DNA from: Nitrosopumilaceae archaeon
Lineage (GTDB): Archaea; Thermoproteota; Nitrososphaeria; Nitrososphaerales; Nitrosopumilaceae
Direction of reading: 5' to 3'
NCBI GenBank assembly: GCA_965208905.1
Contig: OZ242365.1
Location: 352,001-416,000, forward strand
DNA: 64,000 bases
Part shown: piece by piece, positions 58 through 64,000 of the stretch
Position numbering within the stretch: position 1 is the stretch's first letter
Layout of the letters: every line of letters begins with the position of its first letter
Notes under the pieces: generated by a model
Databases searched by the model: none
Seen by the model: only the letters and a program-made list of their open reading frames with translations
What the model was told of the DNA's origin: nothing
Translations under genes and position numbers: made by a program

Positions 58-1477
58 GGGAATTATATACCTGGGTAGACAAGGCTAGTTCTGGAGGGTA
101 CATGTTTATAAAGTATTATGATGTATAAAACTACATGTATCGATCTTATGGCTTCCGCGTAAACCTGACGCGCTCTCAGGCGCGTCACATATCCAAAATA
201 CGGGACTCACAGCGGTTCGTGTACAACTGGGCCGTGGAGCGGCTGCTTACTAACCCCACACTCACTACATATGACCTCTCCAGAGAGTTCACCAAGGTGA
301 GGCGTTCCGTATCGTGGCTGCAAACAGTGGAGCGCATATACCAAAATACGGCCATCCATCAGGCCCGCACTGCTGCGGATGTCTCGAACAAATACGGCAA
401 CGGCGAGCTGAGTTTCCGCGCCAGAAAGCGCGATAATAAAAAGGCAGTATCATGTGATGTACAGCCGCGATTTGTGGACAACAGGCACGCGTCATTGCCG
501 GGCCTTGGTGTTGTTGAGTTGCCTGAGGAGCAGCCATATCAATTTCCACACAACTGGCTGTATGGCTCAAGGTCTTTCCATTTGGTGCAGGTTACACCAA
601 AGTCGTGGGGGCACGTCAAGTCATGTGACCATATCTATCGGCTGCACATAACATATGACGTACCAGTACCCGAACGGCGCGCCAAGACCGGTGTTGTTGC
701 CGGCATAGACAGGGGGATAACAAATCCAACGGTTGTCTGTAAGACAGACCACAACACTTCGTGTATAATATCGTATGACACGGCAACCGCATTCCGCACG
801 AACCGTACATGGAATGATGGTGTGCGCCGTACCATATCACACCACAACAAGCATTCTCATACAACACACAAGATGAAACGCAAACGAGAAAAGTACAATC
901 GTGGTAATGCGAATGACCGCGAGTATGCGGAGTGGCTTCTAGCCAAGAAGATATGCGAGGGCGTGGATGTAATATATGTCGAACAGCTCAACCTTGAGGC
1001 CATGAGCAGGCGCGGTGGTAGGCACAAGAAAGGTCTGAACAGGGGAATGAGGTTTATTCGGCATTATGCAATATTGCGAAAGATCCGCACCATCGCAGAG
1101 CGGCTGGGCATCCGTGTAGTAGAGGTAAGTCCAAAGCACACAAGCCAGGAGTGCAGTGTGTGCGGCTACACAAACAAGGAGAACCGAGACGGGGAGATGT
1201 TCAAGTGTCTCAAATGTGACCACGTGGCAAACGCCGACGGCAATGCGTCGGTGAATATGATTCAACGGGGGACCGGTATGAAGGTTCCCGCGGGGGAAGG
1301 AATGGCCCTCGAAAGGCGTGAAATGGGCCGGACCCGGAAGCCACCTGTTTGTGCAGTTCCGGACGCCAGACGGCGGCGTGAGAATCAAGCGTGCAATCGA
1401 CCCAAAACATCAAGCGTCATGAAGCACCTGGGAATGTACGCGTATGTTACGCGTGCATACCCAGGTATATAATTCCC
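58..1477 (+). mobile_element. Non-autonomous TIR element carrying tnpB (element A1; IS1595/ISNwi-like ends)
   Basis: Perfect 20-bp TIR GGGAATTATATACCTGGGTA at 58-77, inverted at 1458-1477. Flanking 8-bp direct repeat TTGTTTAT (50-57) / TTGTTCAT (1478-1485). Only ORF is tnpB. Confidence 0.88.
135..1472 (+). CDS. tnpB: TnpB RNA-guided endonuclease (subfamily A)
   Basis: RuvC-I GIDRG, RuvC-II VEQL, TSQECSVCG...CLKC zinc finger, RuvC-III NADGNASVNM; ~70-aa C-terminal tail with stop inside the TIR. Confidence 0.92.
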   Translation: MYRSYGFRVNLTRSQARHISKIRDSQRFVYNWAVERLLTNPTLTTYDLSREFTKVRRSVSWLQTVERIYQNTAIHQARTAADVSNKYGNGELSFRARKRDNKKAVSCDVQPRFVDNRHASLPGLGVVELPEEQPYQFPHNWLYGSRSFHLVQVTPKSWGHVKSCDHIYRLHITYDVPVPERRAKTGVVAGIDRGITNPTVVCKTDHNTSCIISYDTATAFRTNRTWNDGVRRTISHHNKHSHTTHKMKRKREKYNRGNANDREYAEWLLAKKICEGVDVIYVEQLNLEAMSRRGGRHKKGLNRGMRFIRHYAILRKIRTIAERLGIRVVEVSPKHTSQECSVCGYTNKENRDGEMFKCLKCDHVANADGNASVNMIQRGTGMKVPAGEGMALERREMGRTRKPPVCAVPDARRRRENQACNRPKTSSVMKHLGMYAYVTRAYPGI

Positions 1478-1560
1478 TTGTTCATGAAACAGTTGTTCCA
1501 CACAGGCGTAAAGAAGTGTTTCATAACACTCCTCTTAATACCTCTTGATGTATACTCAGT

Positions 1561-1848
1561 ATGGTAAAGAAACAGTACAGGTCCGAGATTGGAATAGTCG
1601 GAGACATACTTGATGTTACAGCAGATGCAGGGAGAGATGGTGCCCTAGTTTCAGAGATTACAAGATGCGCCAACCTCTCACACTATGTAACTCTAGCAAA
1701 ATGTGACAAACTGGTTAGTGCTGGCTTGGTAAAGCCAGACAGAAATGGACGTAGTCGTGTATTTCTGATAACTGACAAGGGTCGACAGTTTATCCATGAG
1801 TTAGAGAGATTTCGTATCACCGCCCAAGGCCTTAATTTGAGGTTTTGA
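1561..1848 (+). CDS. Winged-helix transcriptional regulator (archaeal HTH_45-like)
   Basis: YRSEIGIVGDIL...ANLSH...LITDKG pattern. Confidence 0.8.
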   Translation: MVKKQYRSEIGIVGDILDVTADAGRDGALVSEITRCANLSHYVTLAKCDKLVSAGLVKPDRNGRSRVFLITDKGRQFIHELERFRITAQGLNLRF

Positions 1849-1916
1849 TATGTCTGCGCAGGCTGTCGTATGTGTAACGACAAACTTTGATCTAGGGAAT
1901 AGTTTTTGTAACAATC

Positions 1917-2885
1917 ATGTTAATATCATACCTGATGCTGTCCTTGAAAGTTGTTTTTATTGTGGTGATTGTTTGCAGTGTAATGGGTATGGCATATGGC
2001 TCAACCCAGACAATGAGTGTGGAGGTGTATTCGGATGGTCTTGCCCACATATCCACATACATAACACCAGAAGAGGAGAGTCCAGCCTTGAATATCGCCC
2101 TTTTAGGTTCGGAGATAGACAACTTTATAGCAATGGGACAGAACGACGTATTGCTGGCCGCCGAGGTTGCGGGGGATTCAGCTTTGCTTAACACATTCGA
2201 CTCGGGTACTGTATCTGTAAAGTATGATGTGCATGATCTGATATCCAAAGATGGGCGTGTCTGGACTTTTGCTCTCAACTCTACCATAAAATATACGCTG
2301 ATAATGCCCAGTGGGGCGGTCATTGTGGGGATGAACATCATACCAATATCATTAGATATGATAGATGGAAAGACGCATCTAGAGTTACCATCAGGAGATG
2401 CGGTAATAACATACATTCTTAGCGCAGTCCGAGACTCTGTTGAGTCTGACATGAGTTCTGATAATACATCTGAGGATAGCACAGTATTATGGGTGTTGAT
2501 TGCTTTTGGTGCTGTGGGCGCTTTTATAGCTGTATGGTACTACAAGAGGCCTGCTGCAGGTGTACAAGTCAATGATACCACACCAGAGAAGACCAGAGAA
2601 ATGTATATGTCTGAAGGTGTACAAGTCAATGATACCACACCCACGCCTGAGAGTATCTTTGAGCGCATACCTGATTTGAGGGAGGATGATAAGGAGATAG
2701 TTAGGTATCTCTTTCAAAATGGCGGAGAAGCATCCGAGAGTAGTATTCGTAAAAAGTTCCTACAACCGCGCACCACTATGTGGAGGACGATAAAAAGATT
2801 AGAGAGGGTTGGAGCCGTCAGTGTCGTAAAAAAGGACTCTCTTAATGTTGTAAGATTAAAGTCTAATTCGGAGGTCGTACCATGA
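1917..2885 (+). CDS. Membrane-anchored protein with extracellular N-domain and C-terminal winged HTH
   Basis: Signal-like N-terminus, TM segment VLWVLIAFGAVGAFIAVWYY, C-terminal HTH PRTTMWRTIKRLER. Confidence 0.75.
   Translation: MLISYLMLSLKVVFIVVIVCSVMGMAYGSTQTMSVEVYSDGLAHISTYITPEEESPALNIALLGSEIDNFIAMGQNDVLLAAEVAGDSALLNTFDSGTVSVKYDVHDLISKDGRVWTFALNSTIKYTLIMPSGAVIVGMNIIPISLDMIDGKTHLELPSGDAVITYILSAVRDSVESDMSSDNTSEDSTVLWVLIAFGAVGAFIAVWYYKRPAAGVQVNDTTPEKTREMYMSEGVQVNDTTPTPESIFERIPDLREDDKEIVRYLFQNGGEASESSIRKKFLQPRTTMWRTIKRLERVGAVSVVKKDSLNVVRLKSNSEVVP
2558..2641 (+). repeat. 27-bp in-frame direct repeat (GVQVNDTTP x2)
   Basis: AGGTGTACAAGTCAATGATACCACACC at 2558-2584 and 2615-2641. Confidence 0.9.
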
Positions 2886-3838
2886 TTATACCAACACTGG
2901 TAGTTACGGTTTTGGTGGCAGTTCTAATACCCATGGCCAGTGCGGAGACGGAGACTGAGACTGACCCGGCAATACTACATAAACTGGCAACGGAGGCGCA
3001 GATTCACGTTGAGGAGCAGATACAAGAGTCTGATGCGCCTCAGGTGTGGAATCTTTTGAACAATGGTACTGCACATGTAAATTTTATACTCAATGCTACA
3101 ACCGTTGAGGAGTCATCAGATCATTTTCTAGCTGCCATGGAGGCGTTTAGACAGGCAGTCGAGATAATGGGGAAGGATACGCCTATTGAGGATATATCTG
3201 ACTATTCAGAGAGGCTTGAAAGAGATGCTCGATACTTTGAGCAGTTGTTGTACCTGGTCGACGCATACGACATGAGTATAGATGTAGCAGAGCTAGAAGG
3301 CCTGTTTAGTACGGCCAGAGCCATGCTGCAAGATAATGATGGGGACGTTGAAGAGGTGCTAGACAGTATAGCATTAGGTATTGAGAGTCTGCGGGAAGAG
3401 ATAACAGTAGTTGCCACAGAGAAGGAACAAGAACGCGCCATTCAATACGCCCAGGAGTATCTGATTCAGCTGGACAGGTTTTTGGAGGTCGCCGATGACT
3501 CGGACATACCAGATGATGTTATAGAAGAGATACAGGCATTGCGTAGTAAATTAGAGGAGGCCACACAGTCCGATGTCATTGTATCTATAATACTAGAGAT
3601 AATATCCATAAAGGAGGGCTTAAGTTTGGATACTGTTGATCAGTTACAGTTATGGGGCCTGCAACTTGAGGATACTGTCAGGCAATTTTGGATAGATGAC
3701 AAAATAGATGATGCCGAATATACATCGGCTTTAGTGACACTAGAAAAGTGCCGATTCTTTTTGGATATAGAAGAGATAGATGAGGCCGAAACGCTACTAG
3801 ATGAGTTGAACAACTGGCTTGTGGATATAGAAGGTTAG
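2882..3838 (+). CDS. Exported acidic alpha-helical hypothetical protein
   Basis: Signal peptide, very D/E-rich, ATGA overlap with the upstream gene. Confidence 0.7.
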   Translation: MIIPTLVVTVLVAVLIPMASAETETETDPAILHKLATEAQIHVEEQIQESDAPQVWNLLNNGTAHVNFILNATTVEESSDHFLAAMEAFRQAVEIMGKDTPIEDISDYSERLERDARYFEQLLYLVDAYDMSIDVAELEGLFSTARAMLQDNDGDVEEVLDSIALGIESLREEITVVATEKEQERAIQYAQEYLIQLDRFLEVADDSDIPDDVIEEIQALRSKLEEATQSDVIVSIILEIISIKEGLSLDTVDQLQLWGLQLEDTVRQFWIDDKIDDAEYTSALVTLEKCRFFLDIEEIDEAETLLDELNNWLVDIEG

Positions 3839-3885
3839 TGGTGAGCAGACCAAAAATTCATATATTTTCCAATTGTGTCAACTTT

Positions 3886-4080
3886 ATGGCATCTAGGGCT
3901 ATTACAGTTGGGGTAGGAATACCCATGATTGTGGTGGGCGCCCTTATGGCAGTATTATGGGCTCCGTTGGAGGGGGATATACAGCCAACAGTTGAGTTTG
4001 TAGGTAGTCTGATTGGAATATTAGGGGTGGTCTTTTTCATATCTGGACTCTTTTACACAAAAGAGCCGGTACTACATTAG
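3886..4080 (+). CDS. Small two-TM membrane protein
   Basis: Two hydrophobic helices; ATG at 3886 preferred over GTG at 3838. Confidence 0.7.
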   Translation: MASRAITVGVGIPMIVVGALMAVLWAPLEGDIQPTVEFVGSLIGILGVVFFISGLFYTKEPVLH

Positions 4081-4114
4081 ATATAATGAGACGTTTGTAT
4101 GATGTGTGGGAGAC

Positions 4115-4828: not shown

Positions 4829-4894
4829 CATTTGTGTTCTAACTTTTTGTTATCATGCGCACGGTTCAAATAACACAGTACAATATTATATTAC

Positions 4895-5449
4895 ATGGAT
4901 AGCGAGAGAGTACAAAAACTTGTTCGAGAGTTGATAATAGAGATAGGTGAGGACCCCACACGTGAGGGGCTTCGGGACACCCCTGCAAGAATAGCAAATA
5001 TGTATAAGGAGATATTTGCAGGATATGATGCCCCATCTGAATTGGAGGTACAGTTCTGTGAAGATTCAGATGTCGTAGTGGTCCGGGACATACAGTTCTA
5101 CTCAATGTGTGAACATCATATGATGCCATTTTATGGTAAGGTCAGCATCGCATACTCCCCCAATGGCCGAGTCTTTGGAATATCAAAGTTGGTGCGCGTA
5201 GTAGAAAAGTATGCAAAACGTCTCCAGATACAGGAGCGACTCACAAAAAATGTTGCAGACGAGTTATACTCCCGAGGAGTCCGGGGTGTGGCAGTATTTG
5301 CTGATGCCGAGCATCTCTGTATGAAGATGCGGGGTGTGCGCAGCCATGCCAAAGTGACTTCGGCTGCATATCGTGGAATATTTGAGAGTCGTGAGGAGAA
5401 GGATGCCATCCTCTCAATGGTGCGTCGCCGTGCCGCGGATCCCGTTTGA
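4895..5449 (+). CDS. folE: GTP cyclohydrolase I
   Basis: REGLRDTPAR, SMCEHH, GISK, LQIQERLT, HLCMKMRG. Confidence 0.95.
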   Translation: MDSERVQKLVRELIIEIGEDPTREGLRDTPARIANMYKEIFAGYDAPSELEVQFCEDSDVVVVRDIQFYSMCEHHMMPFYGKVSIAYSPNGRVFGISKLVRVVEKYAKRLQIQERLTKNVADELYSRGVRGVAVFADAEHLCMKMRGVRSHAKVTSAAYRGIFESREEKDAILSMVRRRAADPV

Positions 5450-6325: not shown

Positions 6326-6326
6326 A

Positions 6327-24772: not shown

Positions 24773-24971
24773 ACAATCTACACTTGAGCGACTTTTTTAT
24801 ATCTTAGGTTCCTCTGATCAATATACAGTGTGCCACCTGCACTATCCAAAAGGGGTATTAGTCATTATGATGATACGGCATTATTCCGGCTGTCCTCCCC
24901 GTATTGTACACTCCAATATCTGAGCACTACGCATGCGTTTTATCTCTAGTGTATAACTACATCTTAGTCTA

Positions 24972-26456
24972 TGAGCTGGTAACTAAACGTCGCGTAGGTT
25001 ACCGGCCTGCCGTGCGGCAGATGTTGGTGGCGAACCACCATCCAGAGGAGTTACATTGAGACGTTCTTTGTTGGCTGGACTTTGACGCCCGACCTTTGGA
25101 CATCCTGTACCGGCCATCACGTCGTTAACACTTGGAGGAGGCATGCAAGTGCCAAGATGTATCTTCCCTCTCAAGACCATTCCGGCCTTGTCTTGCAGCG
25201 CGTAAACGGCTTGCGCACGCTTAGACCACTGCACTGTGTAAAAAGTGAATAATATGTTGAATGCCGCGTTGACATCCGCGTGCATCAGAACACCGCAATC
25301 ATAACACCGAAACTGGCTGCTTTTGCGCCATGTGTTTGTGTTGCCGCATACACAGCACTGTTGTGAGGTGCCTTTCTGGTCTATCTCGACATACTCTGTA
25401 TTATACTTGAGTGATTGTTGCGCAAGCAAGTTCCGCGCCTCACCACACTTGCTTTGTCGCATCAATTTATTCTTGGCTTTCTGACCCTTCCCTTTTGTGG
25501 TCATGGTTCTGAGGTTCATGCCCTCCATGATGATTTTATCGCACTGCAGCATCAGTTTTTTGGAGAACTTGCGCAGATCATCCATCTGTTTATTTCCCAT
25601 CTTCTTGTAGACCGATTGCAGCTGCGCATGCAAGTTGCGCCACTTGTGAGAATGAAGCTTGCACCGCGCCATCTTCTTTTGTGTTCGCGCGATGTTCCGC
25701 ATGGTATCTTTTTCACGAAGTGTCAGCATCGCAATACCCCCATCCGACTTTCCAACTATAAGCGTGTGCTTGCCGCCCATGTCAATACCCGCGTGTATGC
25801 CGGTACATACACGGTCCGGGACGTGCTCACGAATAGTTACGTGCAACTCGAACTGCCTCTCTTTATCATCGTGATTTGTAACATCCACAATCTTGTAGGA
25901 CTGTGAGGATTTTGGAAGCGTGTCCTTTTGCAGTTTGAAGGGTTTGTCGCACTTTGGGAAGTATACAGTATTACCCTTGGACTTTTTGCCCAATGGAACC
26001 GCGCTGTATAGTGGATATATCTTACGCCCGTACTTTACATGTGCACAACCCTCCATCTTATAGCCTTCTTGTATTGCGCCACGAACCCAAGCTTGGGGGA
26101 TTGTCTGGCATATGGTGGCTACTTTATTGGTATCAAATACCGACAGGCCGGCCCGACGCGCCTCAATTCCGGCATTGAGCCACATGTGCGATTCAGAATA
26201 CATGGAGTCAAAGTATTGTGTTAGTTTGGTTGATGTCTTTAAACGGTACTGCAGAGTCCTAATGATGTACTTTTCATCTTTGTACTTCATATATTACACA
26301 TGATTCGGTGATATTTAAGCGGTGTTCCTATCCAAAGGTTGTACAAAGTCCAGCCAACAAAGAACGTCTCAATGTAACTCCTCTGAATGGCGGTTTGCCG
26401 CCAACATCTGCCATACGGCAGGCCGGTAACCTACGCGACGTTTAGTTACCAGCCCA
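24972..26456 (-). mobile_element. Non-autonomous TIR element carrying tnpB (element B1, 113-bp TIRs)
   Basis: TIR 24972-25084 vs 26344-26456, 106/113 identical, starting TG(A/G)GCTGGTAACTAAA. Perfect 8-bp TSD TTAGTCTA at 24964-24971 and 26457-26464. Confidence 0.93.
24983..26290 (-). CDS. tnpB: TnpB RNA-guided endonuclease (subfamily B)
   Basis: GIDMG, IMEGMNL, TSQQCCVCG...CYDC, HADVNAAFNI. Confidence 0.9.
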   Translation of the reverse strand: MKYKDEKYIIRTLQYRLKTSTKLTQYFDSMYSESHMWLNAGIEARRAGLSVFDTNKVATICQTIPQAWVRGAIQEGYKMEGCAHVKYGRKIYPLYSAVPLGKKSKGNTVYFPKCDKPFKLQKDTLPKSSQSYKIVDVTNHDDKERQFELHVTIREHVPDRVCTGIHAGIDMGGKHTLIVGKSDGGIAMLTLREKDTMRNIARTQKKMARCKLHSHKWRNLHAQLQSVYKKMGNKQMDDLRKFSKKLMLQCDKIIMEGMNLRTMTTKGKGQKAKNKLMRQSKCGEARNLLAQQSLKYNTEYVEIDQKGTSQQCCVCGNTNTWRKSSQFRCYDCGVLMHADVNAAFNILFTFYTVQWSKRAQAVYALQDKAGMVLRGKIHLGTCMPPPSVNDVMAGTGCPKVGRQSPANKERLNVTPLDGGSPPTSAARQAGNLRDV

Positions 26457-26987
26457 TTAGTCTACCTGTATATCTACAGGTAGAATATCACCATGTACAT
26501 CGTTCTTGTCTAAGAAATGATGTTTCTGCCATGACACTTGCACGTTGCCTCTTACTTTGTGTGTACCCTTACCCAGCTCTGATGCTTTGATGGTATAGTC
26601 CTCCTCAAAGTCGAACAGCTCTTGGCGTACATCTTCTTCAGTCAGTTTTATGATGGGCGTAAAATTCTTTGCAACCTGCACCCAGACCCGCTTCTCCTTC
26701 ATGGGATTTACTAGTTTTGGGTTTCTGGTCCAAAATATTGCTGCCTTCTTGTATGATATGATGGGTTTGCCCAGTTTTTGGCGCCTCAACCCTGTAGAGG
26801 TTATATGAACCTCATACTTCATCTTGACGGATACATCGTTGGCATTGTACGCCTCAGTCCAGTTCTGTTCGGTGAATGACTCCCGGTTCTTGCCTTGTAC
26901 AGAAAACTTTACCAGCAAATGTATTGTGTCATCAAGTGAATATGACGACTTTGATGGTATAACCTCTATCTTATCAATTCGATCCAT
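26457..26987 (-). CDS. Hypothetical protein
   Basis: 176-aa ORF; its stop codon lies within the TSD of element B1. Confidence 0.75.
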   Translation of the reverse strand: MDRIDKIEVIPSKSSYSLDDTIHLLVKFSVQGKNRESFTEQNWTEAYNANDVSVKMKYEVHITSTGLRRQKLGKPIISYKKAAIFWTRNPKLVNPMKEKRVWVQVAKNFTPIIKLTEEDVRQELFDFEEDYTIKASELGKGTHKVRGNVQVSWQKHHFLDKNDVHGDILPVDIQVD

Positions 26988-42325: not shown

Positions 42326-42395
42326 TATAGTGTAACATTATATCCTGCTTATTATCGGCATCGGTTCGGATTCTTCTTACAGGGAACTGTCCCAT

Positions 42396-43718
42396 CTACA
42401 GCGCGTGTCCCAAGACAGCGCGTAGATTGACAGCCTGTTGTACAACAGGTGTTGGTGGCGAACCACCATCCAGAGGAGTTACATTGAGATGTTCTTTGTT
42501 GGTTGGATGTTGACACCCATCCTTTGGACAGCCTGTGCCGGCCATCACGTCATTAGCACTTGGAGGAATCATGCAAGTGCCAAGATGTATCTTTCCTCTC
42601 AAGACCATTCCAGCCTTGGCTTGCAGACTATATGCGGTCTGCGCGCGCTTGCTCCAAGATATTACATCTGGAACGTATAGTATATTGTACGCGGCATTGA
42701 TGTCCGCGTGCATTAATACACCACATGTATGGCACCAAAACCTACTGCTCTTGCGCGTTGTGTTCTTACCACCGCACATACAGCACTGTTGAGATGTACC
42801 ACATTGATTGGTTTCCACATATTCTATACTGTGTTGCAGGGAACTCTGCGCGATGTGGCTTCGCGCCTCACCACATTTGGACTGCCGCATTAGACGGTTC
42901 TTGTTTTTCTGACCCTTCCCTTTTGTGGTTATGGTTCTGAGGTTCATGCCCTCCATGATGATTTTGTCGCACTGCGCGAATAGTTTTTTGGCGAACTTGC
43001 GCAGCCTGTCCGTCTGCCTATTTCCCATCTTACGGTATATACATTGCAGTTGCGCATGCAGGTTGCGCCACTTGTGTGAATAAAGTCTGCAATGAGACAT
43101 CCTTTTCTGTATTCGCGCTATGTTCCGCATGGTATCTTTTTCACGAAGTGTCAGCATCGCAATACTCCCATCCGACTTTCCAACAATGAGTGTGTGCTTG
43201 CCACCCATGTCTATGCCCGCATGTACGCCGGTCGTCTTGCGCTTTGGGATGTGTTCACGTATAGTAATATGCAACTCGAACTGCCTCTCCTTATCACTGT
43301 GGTTTGTAACATCCACAAGCTTGTATAACTGGGATGTATTCGGGAGTGTGCCTTTCTGTAGTTTGAAGGGCTTGTCGCATTTTGGGAAATACACCGTATC
43401 ACCCTTGGACTTCTTACCCAACGGGACCGCGCTGTATAGTGGATATATCTTACGCTCGTACTTTACATGCGCACAACCTTTCATCTTATGACCTTCCCGT
43501 ATGGCGCCGTGAACCCAGGCCTGTGGTATACCCTGACACATGGTGGCTACTTTATTGGTGTCGAACACTGACAGACCGGCCCGACGCGCCTCAATCCCCG
43601 CATTGAGCCATATGTGTGATTCCGAATACATCGAGTCAAAATATCTGGTGAGTTTGGTTGATGTCTTGAGACGGTACCGCAGAGTCCTAACAACGTACTT
43701 TCCACCTTTATACTTCAT
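42396..43718 (-). CDS. tnpB: TnpB RNA-guided endonuclease (subfamily B)
   Basis: GIDMG, IMEGMNL, CCMCG...CHTC, HADINAAYNI. Confidence 0.9.
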   Translation of the reverse strand: MKYKGGKYVVRTLRYRLKTSTKLTRYFDSMYSESHIWLNAGIEARRAGLSVFDTNKVATMCQGIPQAWVHGAIREGHKMKGCAHVKYERKIYPLYSAVPLGKKSKGDTVYFPKCDKPFKLQKGTLPNTSQLYKLVDVTNHSDKERQFELHITIREHIPKRKTTGVHAGIDMGGKHTLIVGKSDGSIAMLTLREKDTMRNIARIQKRMSHCRLYSHKWRNLHAQLQCIYRKMGNRQTDRLRKFAKKLFAQCDKIIMEGMNLRTITTKGKGQKNKNRLMRQSKCGEARSHIAQSSLQHSIEYVETNQCGTSQQCCMCGGKNTTRKSSRFWCHTCGVLMHADINAAYNILYVPDVISWSKRAQTAYSLQAKAGMVLRGKIHLGTCMIPPSANDVMAGTGCPKDGCQHPTNKEHLNVTPLDGGSPPTPVVQQAVNLRAVLGHAL

Positions 43719-43786
43719 GTATTATTCACCACTCGGTGATATTTAAGCTTCTTGTTTGCCCAACATCTAAAGCAGGATGTCAATCT

Positions 43787-43820
43787 ACGCGCTGTTTTGG
43801 GACACGCGCTGTTTTGGGAC
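43787..43820 (+). repeat. Perfect 17-bp tandem repeat inside TIR (putative transposase-binding iterations)
   Basis: ACGCGCTGTTTTGGGAC x2; degenerate copies in the other B2/B3 ends. Confidence 0.85.
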
Positions 43821-43849
43821 AGTTCATCCTACAGACATACAAGGTATTC

Positions 43850-50422: not shown

Positions 50423-51864
50423 GGAACTGTCCCATCTACAGCGCGTGTCCCAGGACAGCGCGTAGATTGACATCCTATTTTAGATGTTGGGCAAACAAGA
50501 AGCTTAAATATCATCAAGTGGTAAACCACACATGAAGTACAGAGGCGAAAAGTACGTCATTAGAACTCTTCGGTACCGTCTCAAGACATCAACCAAACTC
50601 ACCAGATATTTTGACTCGATATATTCGGAATCACACATATGGCTCAATGCGGGGATTGAGGCGCGTCGGGCCGGTCTGTCAGTATTCGACACCAACAAAA
50701 TAGCCACCATATGCCAGACAATCCCCCAAGCTTGGGTTCATGGCGCGATACGGGAAGGCCACAAGATGGAGGGATGTACTCACGTAAAGTATAGCAAAAA
50801 GGTTTACCCCCTGTTTAGTAGCGTGCCGCTCGGCAAAAAGTCCAAGGGTGACACGGTGTACTTTCCAAAGTGTGATACTTCTTTCAAACTGCAAAAAGGG
50901 TGTCTACCTGACACATCACAGTCGTATAAAATCGTAGATGTGTCGAATAGTACAGACAGGGAAAGACAGTTCGAGCTGCATGTAACTGTACGTGAACATG
51001 TCCCGGACCGTGTATGTACCGGCATACATGCGGGTATTGACATGGGCGGCAAGCACACACTGATTGTTGGAAAGTCTGACGGTACAATTGATATGCTTAC
51101 ATTGCGCGAGAAGGATACTATACGGAATATCGCACGGATTCAAAAGAAGATGTCCCATTGCAGACTTCACTCCCACAAGTGGTGTACACTGCACGCGCAG
51201 CTGCAAAGCACATACCGCAAGATGGGGAATAGGCAGACAGACAAGCTGCGTAAGTTTGCCAAAAAACTGTTCGCGCAATGCGATAAAATCATCATGGAGG
51301 GGATGAACCTCAGAACCATGACCACAAAAGGGAAGGATCAGAAAAACAAGAACCGTCTAATGCGACAATCAAAATGTGGCGAGGCGCGGGCCTTGCTGGC
51401 GCAACAATCACTTAAACATAACACCGAGTATGTCGAGATTGACCAGAAATATACATCACAGTTATGCTGTGTGTGCGGTAGTAAAAACACGGGGCGCAAA
51501 AGCAGCCAGTTCAGGTGTTATGATTGTAATGTTCTGATGCACGCTGATATAAACGCCGCATTCAACATCCTTTTCACTTTTCGTACTGTACAGTGGAGCA
51601 AGCGGGTGCAAGCCGTTTACGCACTGTACAACAAGGCCGGAATGGTCTTGAGAGGGAAGATACATCTCGCGACACTCACTATACCCAGTGTCGTTGGTGA
51701 TGTGATGGCCGGTACAGGCTGTCCAAAGGATGGGCGTCAAAGTCCAACCAACAAGGAACGTCTCAATGGAGCTCCTCTGGATGGTAATTTGCCAACATCT
51801 GTGTTAACACAGGATGTCAATCAACGCGCTGTCTTGGGACACGCGCTGTAGATAGGACAGTTCC
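50423..51864 (+). mobile_element. Non-autonomous TIR element carrying tnpB (element B3)
   Basis: 54-bp TIR 50423-50476 / 51811-51864, 51/54 identical, same type as B2. No matching TSD (ATATCATA vs CACAAATT). Confidence 0.88.
50532..51851 (+). CDS. tnpB: TnpB RNA-guided endonuclease (subfamily B)
   Basis: GIDMG, IMEGMNL, CCVCG...CYDC, HADINAAFNI; TATA-like CTTAAATA ~25 bp upstream. Confidence 0.9.
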   Translation: MKYRGEKYVIRTLRYRLKTSTKLTRYFDSIYSESHIWLNAGIEARRAGLSVFDTNKIATICQTIPQAWVHGAIREGHKMEGCTHVKYSKKVYPLFSSVPLGKKSKGDTVYFPKCDTSFKLQKGCLPDTSQSYKIVDVSNSTDRERQFELHVTVREHVPDRVCTGIHAGIDMGGKHTLIVGKSDGTIDMLTLREKDTIRNIARIQKKMSHCRLHSHKWCTLHAQLQSTYRKMGNRQTDKLRKFAKKLFAQCDKIIMEGMNLRTMTTKGKDQKNKNRLMRQSKCGEARALLAQQSLKHNTEYVEIDQKYTSQLCCVCGSKNTGRKSSQFRCYDCNVLMHADINAAFNILFTFRTVQWSKRVQAVYALYNKAGMVLRGKIHLATLTIPSVVGDVMAGTGCPKDGRQSPTNKERLNGAPLDGNLPTSVLTQDVNQRAVLGHAL

Positions 51865-56205: not shown

Positions 56206-56207
56206 TT

Positions 56208-59066: not shown

Positions 59067-59073
59067 GTGTCAG

Positions 59074-60273
59074 GTGGATCCAATAGACCGTCTCTTAGAT
59101 GAAGCAGAATCAGGCCTCTCTCTGATTAAGAATCGGGATGCCTTACGCTTTACATTCATCCCAGATAGAATACAACATAGAGATAACGAATTAACACAAG
59201 TAACACAATCATTACTACCCATACTTAAACAATCTAGACCATCCAATCTACTAGTGTATGGTAAACCAGGTACGGGAAAGACTCTTGTAGTTAAAAAAGT
59301 GATATCAAAGATTCAAGAGCGTGTGAAATCCACCAACTTTCCCATAAAATTAGTGTATACTAACTCAAAGGTTGAGACTACTCTGTACGGTCTGTTGTTG
59401 AACTTTGGTCGTCAATTAGATATGTCTGAGAAGGAACTACCATGGACTGGAATATCCATAAGTGAGGTATTTAGGAGAATTCTGGATGTTATAAACAACA
59501 AAAAACTAAACGTCATACTGGTGATCGATGAGATAGACTTTCTAGTCAAATTAGTTACAAAAGGAAATAAAGACATTCTATACCATATCACAAGAGCTAA
59601 TGAGAGATTGAATAATGGTTCTCTTACTCTGGTGGGAATATCTAATAATTTAACATTCAAAGATCATCTTGATCCTAGGGTAATAAGCACATTAGGTGAA
59701 GAAGAGGTTGTCTTTACAAGTTATACTATAGAGCAACTACGCTCTATAATACAAGAGAGAATAAGAATGGCATTTGATAGAGATGTAGTATATGACTCCA
59801 CACTGAATCTCTGCGCAGCGTATGCAGGCCGTGAGCATGGTGATGCCCGCCGAGCAATAGACTTGATTCGTGTAGCAGGTGAGATTGCCGAACGGGATCA
59901 ATCTACATCTGTACAACCAGACCATATTGAAGAGGCATTAAAGAAAATTGAAGAAGACAAAGAGACGGCAGCCCTAAAATCCTACCCACTACACGAGAAA
60001 CTTTTGATATTGGGTGTAATGCGTACGGATGGTTCTACTACTGGGAGTATATACAATGTATACAAAGAGATGTGTAGAAAGATACAACAGAAAGAGCTCT
60101 CATATCGTCGCATAACACAAATGCTTAGTGAGATAGAGATGTCTGGTTTAATATCCAGTCGTTTGGTCCATCAAGGCGTACATGGCAACACAAAAAAATT
60201 CAAACTGACCATATCACAAAGTATAGTCAAAGAGACATTATACCTAGATGATACATTAAGAGAGTTAATTTGA
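59074..60273 (+). CDS. cdc6: Orc1/Cdc6 replication initiator
   Basis: GKPGTGKT, IDEID, GISN, GDARRAIDL, C-terminal winged helix. Confidence 0.96.
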   Translation: MDPIDRLLDEAESGLSLIKNRDALRFTFIPDRIQHRDNELTQVTQSLLPILKQSRPSNLLVYGKPGTGKTLVVKKVISKIQERVKSTNFPIKLVYTNSKVETTLYGLLLNFGRQLDMSEKELPWTGISISEVFRRILDVINNKKLNVILVIDEIDFLVKLVTKGNKDILYHITRANERLNNGSLTLVGISNNLTFKDHLDPRVISTLGEEEVVFTSYTIEQLRSIIQERIRMAFDRDVVYDSTLNLCAAYAGREHGDARRAIDLIRVAGEIAERDQSTSVQPDHIEEALKKIEEDKETAALKSYPLHEKLLILGVMRTDGSTTGSIYNVYKEMCRKIQQKELSYRRITQMLSEIEMSGLISSRLVHQGVHGNTKKFKLTISQSIVKETLYLDDTLRELI

Positions 60274-61677
60274 GAAATCCCTTAAGACTATCTGATGAGT
60301 CTTTAAGTTGAACAATACTGCAATACCGGGTGTAGGTACCTGACCCACGCGTAATTGAAAAGGTGTCTGTCTCTGCCAAGCGCCAGAGTTTATCACCTTT
60401 ACTCCCTTGTATACATCTATCTCAGTTACATGGACATGGCCTGCATGAAACACATCAGGTATATTCTCTATAACCAACAAATCCTCTTTTTCTGGGGCAA
60501 TGGGGGTCTGGCTCCCAAATATGGGAGATAGATGCCTCGCACGCAGTATACTTCTCATTACATCTGCCGGATGAGCGTACTCCATACCGGCCACCCCCTT
60601 TACTATATCATCAATACTCTGTCCGTGAAACATCAATACTTTGATATTATTTACGCTTATCATGGCAGGATTTCCCAACATGAATATATTCTCCTTATTC
60701 CAAAGGTTTGGAGCACTACCTTGTGGTATGGCTGGTTGGGGCAGGGCGCGGCGGCCCGGGTCGTGATTACCAGGAGAGATAAAGACTTTGATATAATCAG
60801 GTATTAACGAGAGTAACTCAGCAGCCTTCTCTAACTGTTTGTATGTAGTCTTCTCTTCCAACTCTTTATCTTGATCCGGAAATATACCCACACCATCTAT
60901 GATATCCCCAGCTATCAGAATGAACCGTACCTTTAAGGCGTATGGATCAGAACTTGACAACCAATCCAGAAACTCCCTAAACTCCCTCTCCATGAAATAC
61001 TTACTTCCTATATGTAAATCCGAGAGTAGTATGGCAAACGCTTCACTGTCACCTTTATTTGTGCTATGCAGGGGCACGTCTGGTTGTATTATATCGGTGA
61101 ATTTTACATCATCACCCTGCTTGTCAACCTTTACCATCACAAATTGATCTAGAAACAACTCTCTGAGCGTATTACGAGCCTGGTCTACAATAAATCCCTC
61201 CAGAGTTCCAGTCATATCCTCTACAGTAAGCCGAAAAGTGTTGTCTTTGATGACTTTATTATTTACAAGACCACAAACATAGGAATCCTGCTCATCTTTG
61301 TTATGTATGTTTGATATATTTTTTAGATTCTTAGCTTCAGGACGCTGTTCCATTATATTTTTTAATTTTTCAAATCTACTTTTAAAAAGTGAATCAAAAC
61401 CCTCACTTTCTCCCGGCATGGTTAGACGGGCAGTACAGTCAAAGAGTATCTCATGTTTACTCTGTATGTTTGTGTCTACTTCAAGTCCCAAATATCTTAT
61501 AATATCATTACCGGTTATGTGAAAATCTTGGTCAATCGACTTTTCTCGTATTATCTCTTTGATGATTTTATCGAGGTTTTTGTCTTCCACACCACCTAAT
61601 ATCTCTACGACCTCTGGATGTATTTGGAAACCCTTCTTGAAAGCATAATCTAGGGCTCTTTTTACATTTCTTCGCAT
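60265..61677 (-). CDS. polB: DNA polymerase D small subunit DP1
   Basis: SDLHIGS, GDIIDGVG, PGNHD, HGQS, GHVH, NSGAWQ. Confidence 0.95.
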   Translation of the reverse strand: MRRNVKRALDYAFKKGFQIHPEVVEILGGVEDKNLDKIIKEIIREKSIDQDFHITGNDIIRYLGLEVDTNIQSKHEILFDCTARLTMPGESEGFDSLFKSRFEKLKNIMEQRPEAKNLKNISNIHNKDEQDSYVCGLVNNKVIKDNTFRLTVEDMTGTLEGFIVDQARNTLRELFLDQFVMVKVDKQGDDVKFTDIIQPDVPLHSTNKGDSEAFAILLSDLHIGSKYFMEREFREFLDWLSSSDPYALKVRFILIAGDIIDGVGIFPDQDKELEEKTTYKQLEKAAELLSLIPDYIKVFISPGNHDPGRRALPQPAIPQGSAPNLWNKENIFMLGNPAMISVNNIKVLMFHGQSIDDIVKGVAGMEYAHPADVMRSILRARHLSPIFGSQTPIAPEKEDLLVIENIPDVFHAGHVHVTEIDVYKGVKVINSGAWQRQTPFQLRVGQVPTPGIAVLFNLKTHQIVLRDFSN

Positions 61678-61794
61678 ACAACACTACTATATTGTATGCA
61701 GAATAAAACCTAAGGCTTCCTACAAATTTTGAACTACATTCCTCTACAAGGTAGCCTGCAGGCCCGCGGCTTGTAAAGGATCGACTCGGCGCCG

Positions 61795-61852
61795 GCATCG
61801 CCAACATCTGCCGTACGGCAGGCTGGTATGTACCTGTAACTTCCCAGTTCCC
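61795..61852 (+). other. Orphan tnpB-element right-end / omega-RNA-like fragment
   Basis: CCAACATCTGCCGTACGGCAGGCTGGTA (61801-61828) matches the B1 end motif and the fragment ends in CAGTTCC like the B2/B3 TIR. Confidence 0.65.
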
Positions 61853-61895
61853 ATGAACCCAACCACAAATATGTCACTACACATTAGACATTTTA

Positions 61896-62411
61896 GTGAA
61901 CCGCATCTATGCCTTCTTTGGTTTTATGGTAGTCTTTACCTCGGCATTTTATGCGGGATCCCTCTTTGAGCATGACCCATTGCAAGCTCAGTTGTTAGTG
62001 GATGAGTTTATGGAGAGTATAGAGGGTATAGACGGGCTGGGAATATTTACGCATAACCTATCTTTGTCACTTCCAATGTTTATACCAGGCTTTGGCGTGG
62101 CCTGGGGAATATTTTCAGGCATATCCACAGGGTATATACTCTCTGCCATTATTACACTCAACCCGGAGGTGGCAATATCACCCTTGGAGTTGTTGTTTTT
62201 ATCACCATTTGGCCTTTTAGAGATAACGGCCTACTCTCTGGCAGGCTCACGCAGTTTTTTGTTGGTTTACAAAATGATACAGAAAGTTAGCATAAGACCC
62301 GACGCCAGAATAGTTGCTACGGAAGTAGGGATAGTCGCCGGTCTACTGTTTGCTGGCGGGATTATAGAGTATTATATGATTGAGATGGCAAGAGAGGCAG
62401 GCATCTTTTAA
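61896..62411 (+). CDS. Stage II sporulation protein M-like membrane protein
   Basis: IFTHN, PFGLLE, AGGIIE. Confidence 0.82.
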   Translation: MNRIYAFFGFMVVFTSAFYAGSLFEHDPLQAQLLVDEFMESIEGIDGLGIFTHNLSLSLPMFIPGFGVAWGIFSGISTGYILSAIITLNPEVAISPLELLFLSPFGLLEITAYSLAGSRSFLLVYKMIQKVSIRPDARIVATEVGIVAGLLFAGGIIEYYMIEMAREAGIF

Positions 62412-63529
62412 TGTCTTCCAAAGACGCCCCAGCGGCTCTTCTTGTATCCCCCTATTACACGGTCTAGCATATCATATGTGATGGTAAAACCATTTCCAAC
62501 CATGGTGTCATTCTTGTCATATTTACCTGGGTCGTCCACGACATCTCTTATCTTTCTGGATTTGATGTCTCGAAGGAACAACCTCTTTCCATCCTCTAAT
62601 GATACAATCATATCATCACTCAGACCTATTATGGAATACTTTTCAAAGAAGCGTATGGAGCCACCCTTTCGTACCATCACACTACAGTCGTATGTAGCTT
62701 TACTCCCATAGATGGAGATGTCGTGGCCTATAATGCGAACATCATCTTCCATGTTTTTGATGATTATGTTCTCCCCCTCCAATAGTACAGTGTCAGTAGC
62801 GTTCTCCAACACCACACTTCCATGAGGCGCATACAGGTGCGTTCTATGCTCTTGTACTGTGTACAGACCCACGCGGCCGTCCGGGTCATTAACCCTGTAC
62901 TTTCTACCGCGAACATCCCCCACCACAATGTTGCCTCTCTCGGCAGTTATGTTGGCCCCGTTCTCTATACGGTATCTATTCTTTAAAGGGTCAACCATCT
63001 TAAAGTCGCCCGATTGTAGTTTGATATCAGTCTTGAACTCTTTGGTCCATGATGGACTGTTTATGCTGCCCTGCATCAGCATAGGGCCAGCATATGTCAG
63101 GGCACCTGCCATGTAGTTTCCCTTCATGTATAATGTTTTATTGGCTTTCACCTCAAACTCCATCTCACCAAACGTCTTTGAGCCGAACATTCGGGTTCCA
63201 GTTACACCACTGCGCAGGAGGGCTCCGGCCCACTCTTGCGCAGCATTCATCTGGGCGCTTATCTCCTGTCCTAATATCTCATTTCTCTTCTTTATCTCCC
63301 GGTCCGTATCACCCGAGAAGACCCGAGAGTTTCGTAATTTTTCCAGAGGTGTGTCTGGATACTTCTTTCCCCTCTTTAGATCCTCGTAAGCCTGCTTTAT
63401 CTTCATGAATCTACTACTGTCCCCACCCCGGTCTGAATGCTCTAATAGTGCCATGTGCCGGAAGGCATCCCGGATGTCTTTCTGAGTAGCCCCCTCTTTT
63501 ATCCCTAGAATATCATAGTTGCTCTCCAT
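62408..63529 (-). CDS. J-domain protein with C-terminal beta-rich domain
   Basis: YDILG...HSDRGG...IKQAYE. Confidence 0.8.
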   Translation of the reverse strand: MESNYDILGIKEGATQKDIRDAFRHMALLEHSDRGGDSSRFMKIKQAYEDLKRGKKYPDTPLEKLRNSRVFSGDTDREIKKRNEILGQEISAQMNAAQEWAGALLRSGVTGTRMFGSKTFGEMEFEVKANKTLYMKGNYMAGALTYAGPMLMQGSINSPSWTKEFKTDIKLQSGDFKMVDPLKNRYRIENGANITAERGNIVVGDVRGRKYRVNDPDGRVGLYTVQEHRTHLYAPHGSVVLENATDTVLLEGENIIIKNMEDDVRIIGHDISIYGSKATYDCSVMVRKGGSIRFFEKYSIIGLSDDMIVSLEDGKRLFLRDIKSRKIRDVVDDPGKYDKNDTMVGNGFTITYDMLDRVIGGYKKSRWGVFGRH

Positions 63530-63596
63530 GAGTATGTAATGCTATATTATCACTTTTTTATGATTCTTTTTTTGACTCTGGTGCCACTGACCTTAA

Positions 63597-64000
63597 GGGA
63601 ATTATATACAAAAGTACACAGCCTCGGCTGTACACTCATGCCTTTTCTGACGGCTTTTTTGTATACAGTGGAGCATAGAAGGTGTTGGCTTGTAGTCCTC
63701 CTTGTGCCCCGGCCGTCTTAGGACGACCTTCCCCGCCGCCCTATGCAGAATATTCCAGGCGGCATTGACATCCGCGTGGAATACCCTGGTACAATTAGTG
63801 CAAATGAATTTGTCGCGTGATATACGCGACTCTGAATCTACGTAACCACACACATGGCACGTCTGGCTCGTATATTTGGCCGATGCCCCCAACAGCGGTA
63901 TGTTGTGCATCTCACACCACTGCGCAAGCTTGCGCAGGAACTCCCCAACATGGTTCTCCCGCATTGAACGGTTCATGGCGCGTTTGTAATTCCCGCCATA
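63597..64000 (-). mobile_element. Partial TIR element carrying tnpB (element A2, truncated by window edge)
   Basis: GGGAATTATATAC at 63597-63609, identical to the first 13 bp of the A1 TIR. Confidence 0.8.
63602..64000 (-). CDS. tnpB: TnpB, C-terminal part
   Basis: YTSQTCHVCG...CTNC, HADVNAAWNI; frame continues off the window; stop inside the TIR. Confidence 0.88.
   Translation of the reverse strand, partial: YGGNYKRAMNRSMRENHVGEFLRKLAQWCEMHNIPLLGASAKYTSQTCHVCGYVDSESRISRDKFICTNCTRVFHADVNAAWNILHRAAGKVVLRRPGHKEDYKPTPSMLHCIQKSRQKRHECTAEAVYFCI

What the first reader, a model, noticed from the sequence alone, without database searches (positions are those of the whole stretch)
58..64000. Family of tnpB genes packaged in TIR elements with 8-bp TSDs (IS1595-like ends) instead of IS200/IS605 ends
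Seen: four complete ~1.4-1.5 kb elements (58-1477, 24972-26456, 42383-43826, 50423-51864) plus one partial (from 63597). Each holds only tnpB, and the complete ones have intact RuvC D/E/D motifs. All complete elements are bounded by TIRs, and three have 8-bp flanking direct repeats (one perfect, two with 1 mismatch). Established: prokaryotic tnpB normally travels in IS200/IS605 (Y1 HUH; no TIR, no TSD) or IS607 (serine) elements, while 8-bp TSDs with TIRs are typical of IS1595-family DDE elements. From memory, the ISNwi-group end consensus ggnnatTAT fits GGGAATTAT. Inference: TnpB has been captured by DDE-mobilised non-autonomous elements moved in trans, a prokaryotic parallel to Fanzor capture by eukaryotic DDE transposons. 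I am not aware of this being described but cannot search the literature.
Basis: partly seen in the sequence, partly recalled or inferred. Interest (0 to 1): 0.93.

Follow-up and report, generated by a model that had tools for sequence, protein, structure and literature searches.

The report
TnpB genes riding DDE transposon ends
In this sponge-associated archaeon the RNA-guided nuclease gene tnpB sits alone in small elements that borrow the ends of ordinary cut-and-paste transposons, and their insertion sites carry a short flanking motif suggesting that the nuclease still targets the empty site.

Summary
The window has four complete tnpB-only elements and one partial, with terminal inverted repeats (TIRs). 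Three complete ones have 8-bp target-site duplications (TSDs); a close relative has matching empty sites.

Only E1 (58-1477) and the partial copy (from 63597) have IS1595-type ends. Their first 12-13 bases match intact IS1595-family elements in the same genome, which also make 8-bp TSDs. E2-E4 have other ends, shared with an IS6-like SWIM/DDE transposon.

The complete genome has at least 60 tnpB loci. It has no Y1 TnpA and no serine recombinase. 45 of 47 TnpB ORFs keep the RuvC triad.

New here: oriented by tnpB, the bases just 5' of the upstream TSD copy are conserved in three end/TnpB groups of the genome. That is G in 20 of 20 IS1595-ended copies, TT in 6 of 6 in group F, and TA in 12 of 13 in group G (F and G lie outside the window). 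The mirror position shows nothing, and elements with the same ends but no tnpB lack the motif. This looks like a target-adjacent motif (TAM), with the guide starting in the TSD.

The principle (DDE-linked TnpB, solo copies moved in trans) was published in 2023. I found neither the IS1595 link nor this geometry in print.

The parts
58..1477 (+). E1: tnpB-only non-autonomous element with IS1595-type (type A) ends. The TIRs are 58-77 and 1458-1477.
   Evidence: Sequence read. A second copy at G000 2062478-2063897 differs at 2 of 1420 bases and has its own perfect TSD. The empty site in G005 has a single TTGTTCAT.
50..57 (.). E1 left TSD copy, TTGTTTAT. The right copy, TTGTTCAT, is at 1478-1485.
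135..1472 (+). E1 tnpB (445 aa). The stop codon TAA lies inside the right TIR, 5 nt from the element end.
   Evidence: Pfam OrfB_IS605, Cas12f1-like_TNB and HTH_OrfB_IS605. NCBIfam guided_TnpB scores 123 bits against a cut-off of 100. GIDRG, VEQLN and NADGNA align to the Cas12f RuvC motifs.
1274..1477 (+). Predicted omegaRNA scaffold region of E1. A strong hairpin sits directly before the last 12 nt, UAUAUAAUUCCC. This is inferred, not shown.
   Evidence: strand folding gives MFE -75.3 kcal/mol, z = -2.07.
24972..26456 (-). E2: tnpB-only element with type B ends (TGRGCTGGTAAC...). The TIR arms are about 24972-25084 and 26344-26456. The TSD TTAGTCTA is at 24964-24971 and 26457-26464.
   Evidence: The site is empty in G005, with a single CTAGTCTA.
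24983..26290 (-). E2 tnpB (435 aa). The ORF ends 11 nt from the element end. Its 3' coding part is repeated, inverted, in the other TIR arm.
42383..43826 (-). E3: tnpB-only element with type C ends (KGAACTGTCCCA...). tnpB is at 42396-43718 (-). The TSD TCTTACAG/TCCTACAG is at 42375-42382 and 43827-43834.
   Evidence: The site is empty in G005, with a single TCTTACAA-like 8-mer.
50423..51864 (+). E4: tnpB-only element with type C ends. tnpB is at 50532-51851 (+). There is no TSD (ATATCATA / CACAAATT).
63597..64000 (-). Partial type-A element of the A1 clade. The 3' end of its tnpB lies in the window. The full element is G000 415597-417068. The TSD copy on the tnpB-downstream side, GACCTTAA, is at 63589-63596.
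   Evidence: The empty site in G005 has a single TTAAGGTA in tnpB orientation. The 3' region folds with z = -4.05.

Best explanation
The five window elements are non-autonomous transposable elements whose only gene is tnpB. DDE transposases encoded elsewhere in the genome most likely move them in trans.

There are two end types in the window:
- Type A (E1 and the partial copy) ends in GGGAATTATATAC. This is the terminus of intact IS1595-family elements in the same genome. Those elements carry the transposase plus a DNA methyltransferase-HNH passenger and also make 8-bp TSDs.
- Types B and C (E2-E4) end in GGnnCTGT... This is the kind of terminus used by an IS6-like DDE transposon with SWIM and zinc-ribbon domains, which also makes 8-bp TSDs.

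Shown:
- TIRs, 8-bp TSDs and empty sites.
- Shared termini with the DDE elements.
- Intact RuvC triads.
- No Y1 or serine transposase in a complete genome.

Inferred:
- TnpB still works as in IS605.
- The omegaRNA scaffold lies in the 3' end of the ORF and ends at the right TIR.
- The guide is the right TSD copy plus the flank.
- The conserved bases just 5' of the left TSD copy are the TAM.
- Under this reading TnpB would cut the empty or precisely excised site, and repair from a copy that still holds the element would put it back. Insertions next to a TAM would then persist.
For: (1) TIRs and 8-bp TSDs are general. 13 of 18 type-A tnpB elements have perfect TSDs, as do 3 of 3 A2 copies. For types B, C and E; 5 of the 10 elements listed there have a perfect TSD.

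(2) Seven of eight tested sites are cleanly empty in G005, each with one 8-mer.

(3) IS1595 partners are present. Four intact copies of three variants end in GGGAATTATA and have perfect 8-bp TSDs. They score 173-177 bits on NCBIfam transpos_IS1595 (cut-off 75). Two copies are 99.86% identical with different TSDs.

(4) The IS6-like SWIM/DDE element at G000 157876-161563 has TIRs starting GGAACTGTCAAAAAC and a perfect TSD. Type C ends lie next to such DDE genes at 1102513 and 1285965.

(5) No Y1_Tnp and no Resolvase match was found in the one-contig genome, which is 99.6% complete. Controls gave matches in 6 and 12 of 14 genomes.

(6) 45 of 47 TnpB ORFs of at least 300 aa keep D-E-D and CCCC.

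(7) Type-A ends sit on three deeply separated TnpB clades (quick tree). In relatives they sit on TnpBs that are at best 26-32% identical to the G000 clades in 7 of 8 cases; the eighth, L067, is about 82% identical to the T913967/T1455349 clade.

(8) TAM-like signal, oriented by tnpB:
- Type-A elements with a TSD: G at -1 in 13 of 13 in G000 and 7 of 7 in relatives (binomial p = 1.5e-13). The mirror position has G in 5 of 20.
- Family F: TT at -3,-2 in 6 of 6.
- Family G: TA at -2,-1 in 12 of 13 with no TSD filter.
- F and G share GGTTCC ends but differ in motif.

(9) Elements with type-A ends but no tnpB lack the rule. G occurs on 5 of 12 sides, by eye. It occurs at 0 of 5 transposase-proximal ends.

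(10) G is already present in 3 of 4 empty alleles.

(11) The last 4 nt of each element (TCCC, AACC) do not match its own motif, as self-avoidance would require.
Against: - No experiment or read-level data shows mobilisation in trans or an omegaRNA.
- The shared terminus is only 12-13 nt for type A. No element found holds both a DDE transposase and tnpB.
- In G023, five type-A tnpB elements (three with perfect and two with 7/8 TSDs) coexist with an IS1595 transposase. That locus, about 1.5 kb each side of the match, shows no GGGAATTATA ends.
- G375 and G266 have type-A tnpB elements but no IS1595 transposase.
- The partner for GGTTCC ends (families F and G) was not found in this genome.
- The E1/A2 clade shows no clear flank motif (6 copies). 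Types B, C and E show only a weak one.
- G at -1 is shared by TnpB lineages only about 30% identical. It could therefore belong to the end subtype rather than to TnpB.
- Of five type-A copies without a clean TSD, two have A at -1. One G008 copy has A under an 8-bp reading.
- One empty allele has T, not G.
- The control set without tnpB is small.
Confidence: 0.75

Rival explanations
1. The elements are moved by DDE transposases as above. But the one-sided flank motif is an asymmetric target preference of the transposase-end complex, and TnpB is a passenger whose activity has nothing to do with the insertion site.
For: G at -1 is shared by TnpB lineages only 26-32% identical that share the same 24-nt TIR subtype. 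The E1/A2 clade has a different inner TIR and lacks it. G pre-exists in 3 of 4 empty alleles, which fits site choice at integration as well as later retention.
Against: - DDE target preferences are normally symmetric (established knowledge), and the mirror position shows no signal.
- Type-A elements without tnpB do not follow the rule. G is on 5 of 12 sides by eye, with two elements having none. It is at 0 of 5 transposase-proximal ends.
- Families F and G share the first 14 nt of their ends but show ATTG against CTTA.
Confidence: 0.17
2. These are ordinary IS200/IS605 (IS1341-type) elements that happened to insert into MITEs, so the TIRs and TSDs belong to the MITE.
For: MITEs with the same ends exist, for example G000 658457-658571 (115 bp, perfect TSD).
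Against: - The tnpB stop codon lies inside the right TIR, 5 nt from the end in the E1 and A1 types and 11-13 nt in E2-E4. That leaves no room for a nested right end.
- The flank motif lies outside the TSD, not inside the TIR.
- Three TnpB clades carry the same ends.
- The genome has no Y1 transposase.
- Near-identical copies move as whole TIR-bounded units with new TSDs.
Confidence: 0.03
3. The tnpB genes are domesticated or inactive passengers (regulator-like) with no nuclease role.
For: Nothing specific. Altae-Tran 2023 (PMC10691335, passages read) describe inactivated TnpBs in some associations outside IS605.
Against: 45 of 47 ORFs keep D-E-D and the zinc finger. ORFs are intact across many diverged copies.
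Confidence: 0.05

Closest known systems
DDE-transposase-associated TnpB branches (DDE-1 to DDE-6) of Altae-Tran et al. 2023, PNAS (PMC10691335; section 9 and passages read)
   Same: TnpB sits inside elements with inverted terminal repeats. Solo TnpBs are flanked by the same ends as transposase-bearing copies and are inferred to move in trans. The 3' end of TnpB lies close to a transposon end.
   Different: The main text names only IS630. A 2026 review (PMC13565253, passages read) lists ISL2, IS630 and IS1031. Neither IS1595 nor IS6-like partners are named in what I could read; the supplements were closed. Here no copy found holds both genes. At least three end types occur in one genome. A flank motif lies outside a variable 8-bp TSD.
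IS1595 family insertion sequences carrying passenger genes
   Same: The autonomous partners have a DDE_Tnp_IS1595 domain, a zinc ribbon, TIRs starting GGGAATTAT, 8-bp TSDs and a passenger gene (methyltransferase-HNH).
   Different: The tnpB elements lack the transposase and share only the terminal 12-13 nt. Assignment to the ISNwi1 subgroup rests on a recalled end consensus and was not tested.
IS200/IS605 family, IS1341 group (tnpB-only elements)
   Same: Same cargo, an RNA-guided TnpB with intact RuvC. Same implied logic of a TAM directly next to guide-matching DNA in the empty site.
   Different: IS200/IS605 elements have no TIRs and no TSDs and depend on a Y1 TnpA (stated in PMC13565253). 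Here there are TIRs and 8-bp TSDs, and the genome has no Y1 gene.
Fanzor in eukaryotic DDE transposons (Bao & Jurka 2013, PMC3627910, search listing and abstract only; review PMC13565253, passages read)
   Same: A TnpB homologue is carried by TIR/TSD transposons of DDE families.
   Different: In the reported Fanzor structures the 5' TSD is part of the TAM and the 3' TSD is part of the RNA scaffold (review). Here the TSD is 8 bp and variable, and the conserved motif lies upstream of it. The TSD would therefore be the start of the guide.

Membership tests
TnpB (RNA-guided nuclease, OrfB_IS605) | Matches to the OrfB_IS605 and TNB/zinc-ribbon domains above the curated cut-offs | tested here: met
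   Pfam. One ORF, E4, scores 30.1 against a cut-off of 30.5 for OrfB_IS605, but its TNB domain scores 55.7. NCBIfam guided_TnpB gives 123 and 114 bits against a cut-off of 100.
TnpB (RNA-guided nuclease, OrfB_IS605) | RuvC D-E-D triad and CCCC zinc finger | tested here: met
   45 of 47 ORFs. The E1 motifs align to Cas12f.
TnpB (RNA-guided nuclease, OrfB_IS605) | An omegaRNA from the 3' end, with a guide taken from the flank | tested here: inconclusive
   The 3' regions are structured (z = -4.05 and -2.07). Rfam gave no match at gathering scores. Only RNA-library contigs were available.
IS200/IS605 family (IS1341 group) | No TIRs and no TSD; subterminal hairpins; insertion 3' of a fixed 4-5 nt target | tested here: not met
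   TIRs of 20 to about 113 nt and 8-bp TSDs, with empty sites.
IS200/IS605 family (IS1341 group) | A Y1 HUH TnpA available to move it | tested here: not met
   No PF01797 match in the complete genome. No PF00239 match either.
IS1595 family (the autonomous partners) | DDE_Tnp_IS1595 transposase with an N-terminal zinc ribbon | tested here: met
   PF12762 at E about 1e-40. The zinc-ribbon domain is at or just below its cut-off. NF033547 scores 173-177 bits.
IS1595 family (the autonomous partners) | TIRs and 8-bp TSDs | tested here: met
   Four copies in G000 have perfect TSDs. L068 in G005 does as well.
Non-autonomous IS1595 derivative (E1 and the partial copy) | Same termini and TSD length as the autonomous element, with no transposase gene | tested here: met
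   12-13 nt are identical, the TSD is 8 bp, and tnpB is the only ORF.
Non-autonomous IS1595 derivative (E1 and the partial copy) | Actually mobilised by that transposase | not testable with these tools
   Co-occurrence only. The transposase is present in G000, G005, G008 and G023 and absent from G375 and G266.
IS6 family (partner of E2-E4) | IS6 transposase above the NCBIfam cut-off | tested here: not met
   NF033587 scores 81-104 bits, below the cut-off of 125. Pfam DDE_Tnp_IS240 is above its cut-off, and there are extra SWIM and zinc domains. It works like a DDE element with 8-bp TSDs, but I do not file it as IS6.

The most novel reading that the evidence does not exclude
In this archaeal lineage TnpB has been taken up repeatedly by at least three kinds of DDE-type TIR/TSD elements and has entirely lost its usual Y1 or serine partners. 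It still acts as a homing nuclease. The guide begins with the 8-bp TSD and the TAM lies just outside it. The nuclease, not the transposase, would then decide which random DDE insertions persist. That would be a prokaryotic solution to the TSD problem different from the one described for Fanzor.
Probability: 0.5. Interest if true: 0.82.

Novelty: new variant of a known kind. Interest (0 to 1): 0.66.

Why it matters
The general rule that TnpB needs scarless Y1 or serine transposition has a stated exception, the DDE-linked branches, but those are little studied. A 2026 review calls for work on exactly such systems.

This genome is a clean natural case:
- It has at least 60 tnpB loci and no TnpA.
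- It holds identifiable DDE partners.
- A sister genome has the matching empty sites.
- The flank signal gives testable TAM predictions: NTNG or ATAG for the A1 clade, ATTG for family F, TTA(C) for family G.

If the TAM reading holds, it shows how an RNA-guided nuclease can serve a cut-and-paste element that makes variable TSDs. It would also add compact archaeal TnpBs with new TAMs.

Tried and rejected
- RNA evidence. The look-up of sequencing runs gave sponge and marine metatranscriptome runs, but only as contigs. Read laying showed RNA-library contigs over parts of E1-family sequence. One ran to the element end and 2 nt beyond. Contigs cannot show RNA ends or strand, and DNA carry-over is possible, so I draw no conclusion on an omegaRNA.
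- Rfam at gathering scores found only a tRNA in the window.
- A metagenome scan for the 23-nt TIR found nothing.
- Partner for GGTTCC ends. ORFs next to solitary ends were ordinary genes. G007 has 38 such ends at contig breaks, and the 20 I fetched share the same 50 or more nt. I could not see the inside of these elements, and their flanks (TA in 4 of 20) are uninformative without orientation.
- Full ends of most IS6-like DDE copies could not be defined. Only one complete element was.
- The site of the 33496 element is not cleanly empty in G005.
- Nucleotide conservation along 14 A1 copies is only slightly higher in the 3' 200 nt (0.90-0.95 against about 0.85). That is not decisive.
- The careful tree did not finish, so a quick IQ-TREE was used on 47 of 49 loci. 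Two loci with 250-aa ORFs were dropped. Of the 65 tblastn clusters, I carried 49 forward and dropped 16 shorter fragments.
- Literature. I ran six searches. None showed TnpB with IS1595 or a TAM outside a TSD. Filee 2007 was not held. The supplements of PMC10691335 were closed and may list the DDE families.
- In two coordinate rows (the A2 copies at 1469341 and 2182266) I set the ends 2 nt off.

Full report

- E1 (58-1477) has a perfect 20-nt TIR and a 7/8 TSD.
- E2 (24972-26456) has a TIR of about 113 nt and a perfect TSD, TTAGTCTA.
- E3 (42383-43826) has a TIR of about 55 nt and a 7/8 TSD.
- E4 (50423-51864) has the same TIR type as E3 and no TSD.
- The copy starting at 63597 runs out of the window to genome position 417068 and has a 7/8 TSD.

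Each complete element holds one ORF of 435-445 aa. These ORFs match OrfB_IS605 and Cas12f1-like_TNB and NCBIfam guided_TnpB.

**Is it more than chance, and is the duplication real?** Genome-wide, tblastn with the four proteins gave 65 loci.

The 12-mer GGGAATTATATA (up to 1 mismatch) occurs 47 and 45 times on the two strands, against about 7.5 expected. Properly oriented pairs bound 18 tnpB-bearing elements. Of these, 13 have a perfect 8-bp TSD, 2 have one mismatch, 1 has two, and 2 have none.

A sister genome, G005 (93-98% identical in flanks), has clean empty sites for seven elements. They are E1, E2, E3, the partial copy, and three type-A copies at 339644, 1344785 and 1760171. In five of them the two flank alignments overlap by exactly 8 bases. 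For E2 and E3 a single 8-mer was read directly from the G005 sequence. One further site (33496) was not clean.

Two E1 copies differ at 2 of 1420 bases yet have different TSDs. So whole TIR-bounded units have moved recently.

**Who moves them? Type A.** The genome has IS1595-family transposase genes.

- The elements at 1043578-1046414 and 1770047-1772736 have GGGAATTATATAC ends and perfect 8-bp TSDs. Each encodes a transposase of about 320 aa plus a DNA methyltransferase-HNH protein.
- A third variant occurs twice at 99.86% identity. It ends in GGGAATTATAGTGATGG and has perfect TSDs.
- All score 173-177 bits on NCBIfam transpos_IS1595, against a cut-off of 75.

The tnpB elements share the first 12-13 nt of these ends and then differ.

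**Who moves them? Types B, C and E.** E2-E4 have different ends, TGRGCTGGTAAC and KGAACTGTCCCA. These belong with a group of ends of the form GGnnCTGT.

The genome has 13 genes for an IS6-like DDE protein with SWIM and zinc-ribbon domains. It scores 81-104 bits on NF033587, below the cut-off of 125.

One complete element, 157876-161563, has TIRs of about 52 nt starting GGAACTGTCAAAAAC and a perfect TSD, GTCAATAC. It carries this DDE gene and, again, a methyltransferase-HNH gene. Type C ends also lie next to such DDE genes at 1102513 and 1285965.

So three of the four complete window elements are not IS1595-ended.

**No classical partner.** The genome is 99.6% complete. Searches for Y1_Tnp and Resolvase found nothing, while the controls gave matches in 6 and 12 of 14 genomes.

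**State of TnpB.** 45 of 47 ORFs of at least 300 aa keep D-E-D and the four zinc-finger cysteines. The E1 motifs align with those of Cas12f.

The ORF runs into the 3' TIR. In the E1 and A1 types the stop codon is the TAA inside TATATAATTCCC, 5 nt from the element end. In E2-E4 it lies 11-13 nt from the end. That leaves no room for a nested IS605 right end.

The last 204 nt fold with z = -4.05 (A1 type) and -2.07 (E1). In both, a strong hairpin sits just before the terminal 12-17 nt.

**Modularity.** A quick maximum-likelihood tree covered 47 proteins; two of the 49 loci were dropped. Type-A ends fall on three deep clades, interleaved with clades that carry other ends.

In relatives, the same 23-nt TIR (up to 2 mismatches) occurs in 8 of 401 genomes of the family, in 3 of 27 genera. 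The reversed-pattern control gave 0.

In those relatives the TIR bounds tnpB elements of 1.4-2.1 kb, or 5.9 kb where other ISs are nested inside. Seven of the eight have a perfect or 7/8 TSD; L075 has none. In 7 of 8 cases the TnpB is at best 26-32% identical to the G000 clades. The eighth, L067, is about 82% identical to the T913967/T1455349 clade.

Relatives are labelled Cenarchaeum sp. MAGs. The RNA runs that hold the stretch are sponge and marine metatranscriptomes.

**A one-sided flank motif.** I oriented each element by tnpB and looked at the bases just 5' of the upstream TSD copy.

| Group | Ends | Motif | Count |
|---|---|---|---|
| Type A, G000 A1 clade (TSD with up to 1 mismatch) | GGGAATTATATAC | G at -1; T at -3; A at -4 | 13/13; 10/13; 9/13 |
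| Type A, relatives | same | G at -1 | 7/7 |
| Type A, both sets, mirror position | same | G | 5/20 |
| Family F | GGTTCC | TT at -3,-2 (ATTG-like) | 6/6 |
| Family G (about 520-aa TnpB-like) | GGTTCC | TA at -2,-1, no TSD filter | 12/13 |

- For the 20 type-A elements the binomial p is 1.5e-13.
- In family G the 13th copy fits after a 1-nt shift. The first TSD base is C in 7 of the 8 clean copies.
- In G008, two upstream ends have G at -1. A third has A under an 8-bp reading, or G under a 7-bp reading.

Results against the rule:

- Of five type-A copies without a clean TSD, three have G and two have A.
- The E1/A2 clade (6 copies) shows no clear motif, and types B, C and E only a weak one.

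Controls:

- Type-A elements without tnpB have G on 5 of 12 sides, by eye. Two of those elements have none.
- Five transposase-proximal ends in G005 and G008 have no G.
- The G is already there in 3 of 4 empty alleles. The fourth has T.

**Reading.** The geometry matches IS605 logic. In the empty site the motif directly abuts the 8-mer and the right flank. That is the DNA an RNA reading out through the right TIR would carry as its guide. The last four bases of each element (TCCC, AACC) differ from its own motif, so the occupied site would be spared.

I therefore read the motif as a TAM. The bias would be retention or homing acting on otherwise unselective DDE insertions. This is inference. The main rival is an asymmetric transposase preference. 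G at -1 being shared among TnpBs only about 30% identical, which also share one TIR subtype, keeps that rival alive.

**What is known.** Altae-Tran et al. 2023 (PMC10691335, section 9 read) report six DDE-associated TnpB branches, all with inverted terminal repeats. They also report solo TnpBs with nearly identical ends, inferred to move in trans. The main text names only IS630.

A 2026 review (PMC13565253, passages read) lists ISL2, IS630 and IS1031. It says that in the Fanzor structures the 5' TSD is part of the TAM and the 3' TSD part of the scaffold.

My six searches found no paper linking TnpB with IS1595, or placing a TAM outside a variable TSD. The 2023 supplements were closed and may hold the DDE families. 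The 'ISNwi1' end consensus is recalled, not tested.

**Verdict.** What appears new is:

- the IS1595 and IS6-like partners,
- a genome with no TnpA at all, and
- the TAM-like signal next to the TSD.

Noticed in passing
G000:C1:1043578-1046414, 1770047-1772736 and 157876-161563; L072 (G005): Two unrelated DDE transposon types (IS1595 and the IS6-like SWIM type) both carry a DNA methyltransferase fused to an HNH nuclease as a passenger. G005 also has a copy with the methyltransferase only, type-A ends and a perfect TSD.
   Followed up: partly
G000:C1, for example 239554-241169, 60267-61884, 329442-331057 (13 copies): A 1.6-kb element family has GGTTCCTCCCGCAAAGTCGGGTGAT ends and 8-bp TSDs. It encodes a protein of about 520 aa with only a weak TnpB signature (Pfam TNB 28 bits). 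TTA precedes the upstream TSD copy in 12 of 13. The TTA is kept even in the copies whose TSD is lost.
   Followed up: partly
G007, ends of many contigs (L092-L111): There are 38 ends with the GGTTCC terminus, and the 20 I fetched share an identical stretch of 50 nt or more; most lie at contig breaks. This may be the autonomous partner of families F and G. I did not see its interior.
   Followed up: no
window 50423-51864; G000:C1:1455264-1456902 and 2049469-2051107: E4 has no TSD. In the two other copies the 8-mer GGAAATTA flanks the 3' end of one and the 5' end of the other, as if the copies had recombined and swapped flanks.
   Followed up: partly
G000:C1:1972621-1975198; L069 (G375): tnpB elements are themselves hit by other ISs. 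One holds an IS630-like DDE gene. Another holds DDE_Tnp_1, IS110 and rve-type genes. The outer TSDs are still perfect.
   Followed up: partly
G005 empty site for G000 339644-341109 (L026 pos 1150-1157): The empty allele has T where the occupied allele has the conserved G at -1. This is one case of four.
   Followed up: partly
G000:C1:139459-139773, 781017-781343, 1403835-1404161: A second, weaker class of IS1595-like DDE genes (54-56 bits) has different ends, not defined here.
   Followed up: no
G000:C1:63122-64592, 1028506-1029980, 1561190-1562635, 1570174-1571619: A further group of tnpB elements (type D) has TAGAGTTTATGCGTAAT-type TIRs and no detectable TSD. Two of them lie in an inverted duplication and lack the third RuvC residue.
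   Followed up: no
window 24972-25084 and 26344-26456: The 113-nt TIR of E2 includes the last 34 or so codons of tnpB. The left end therefore carries an antisense copy of the 3' coding and presumed RNA region.
   Followed up: no
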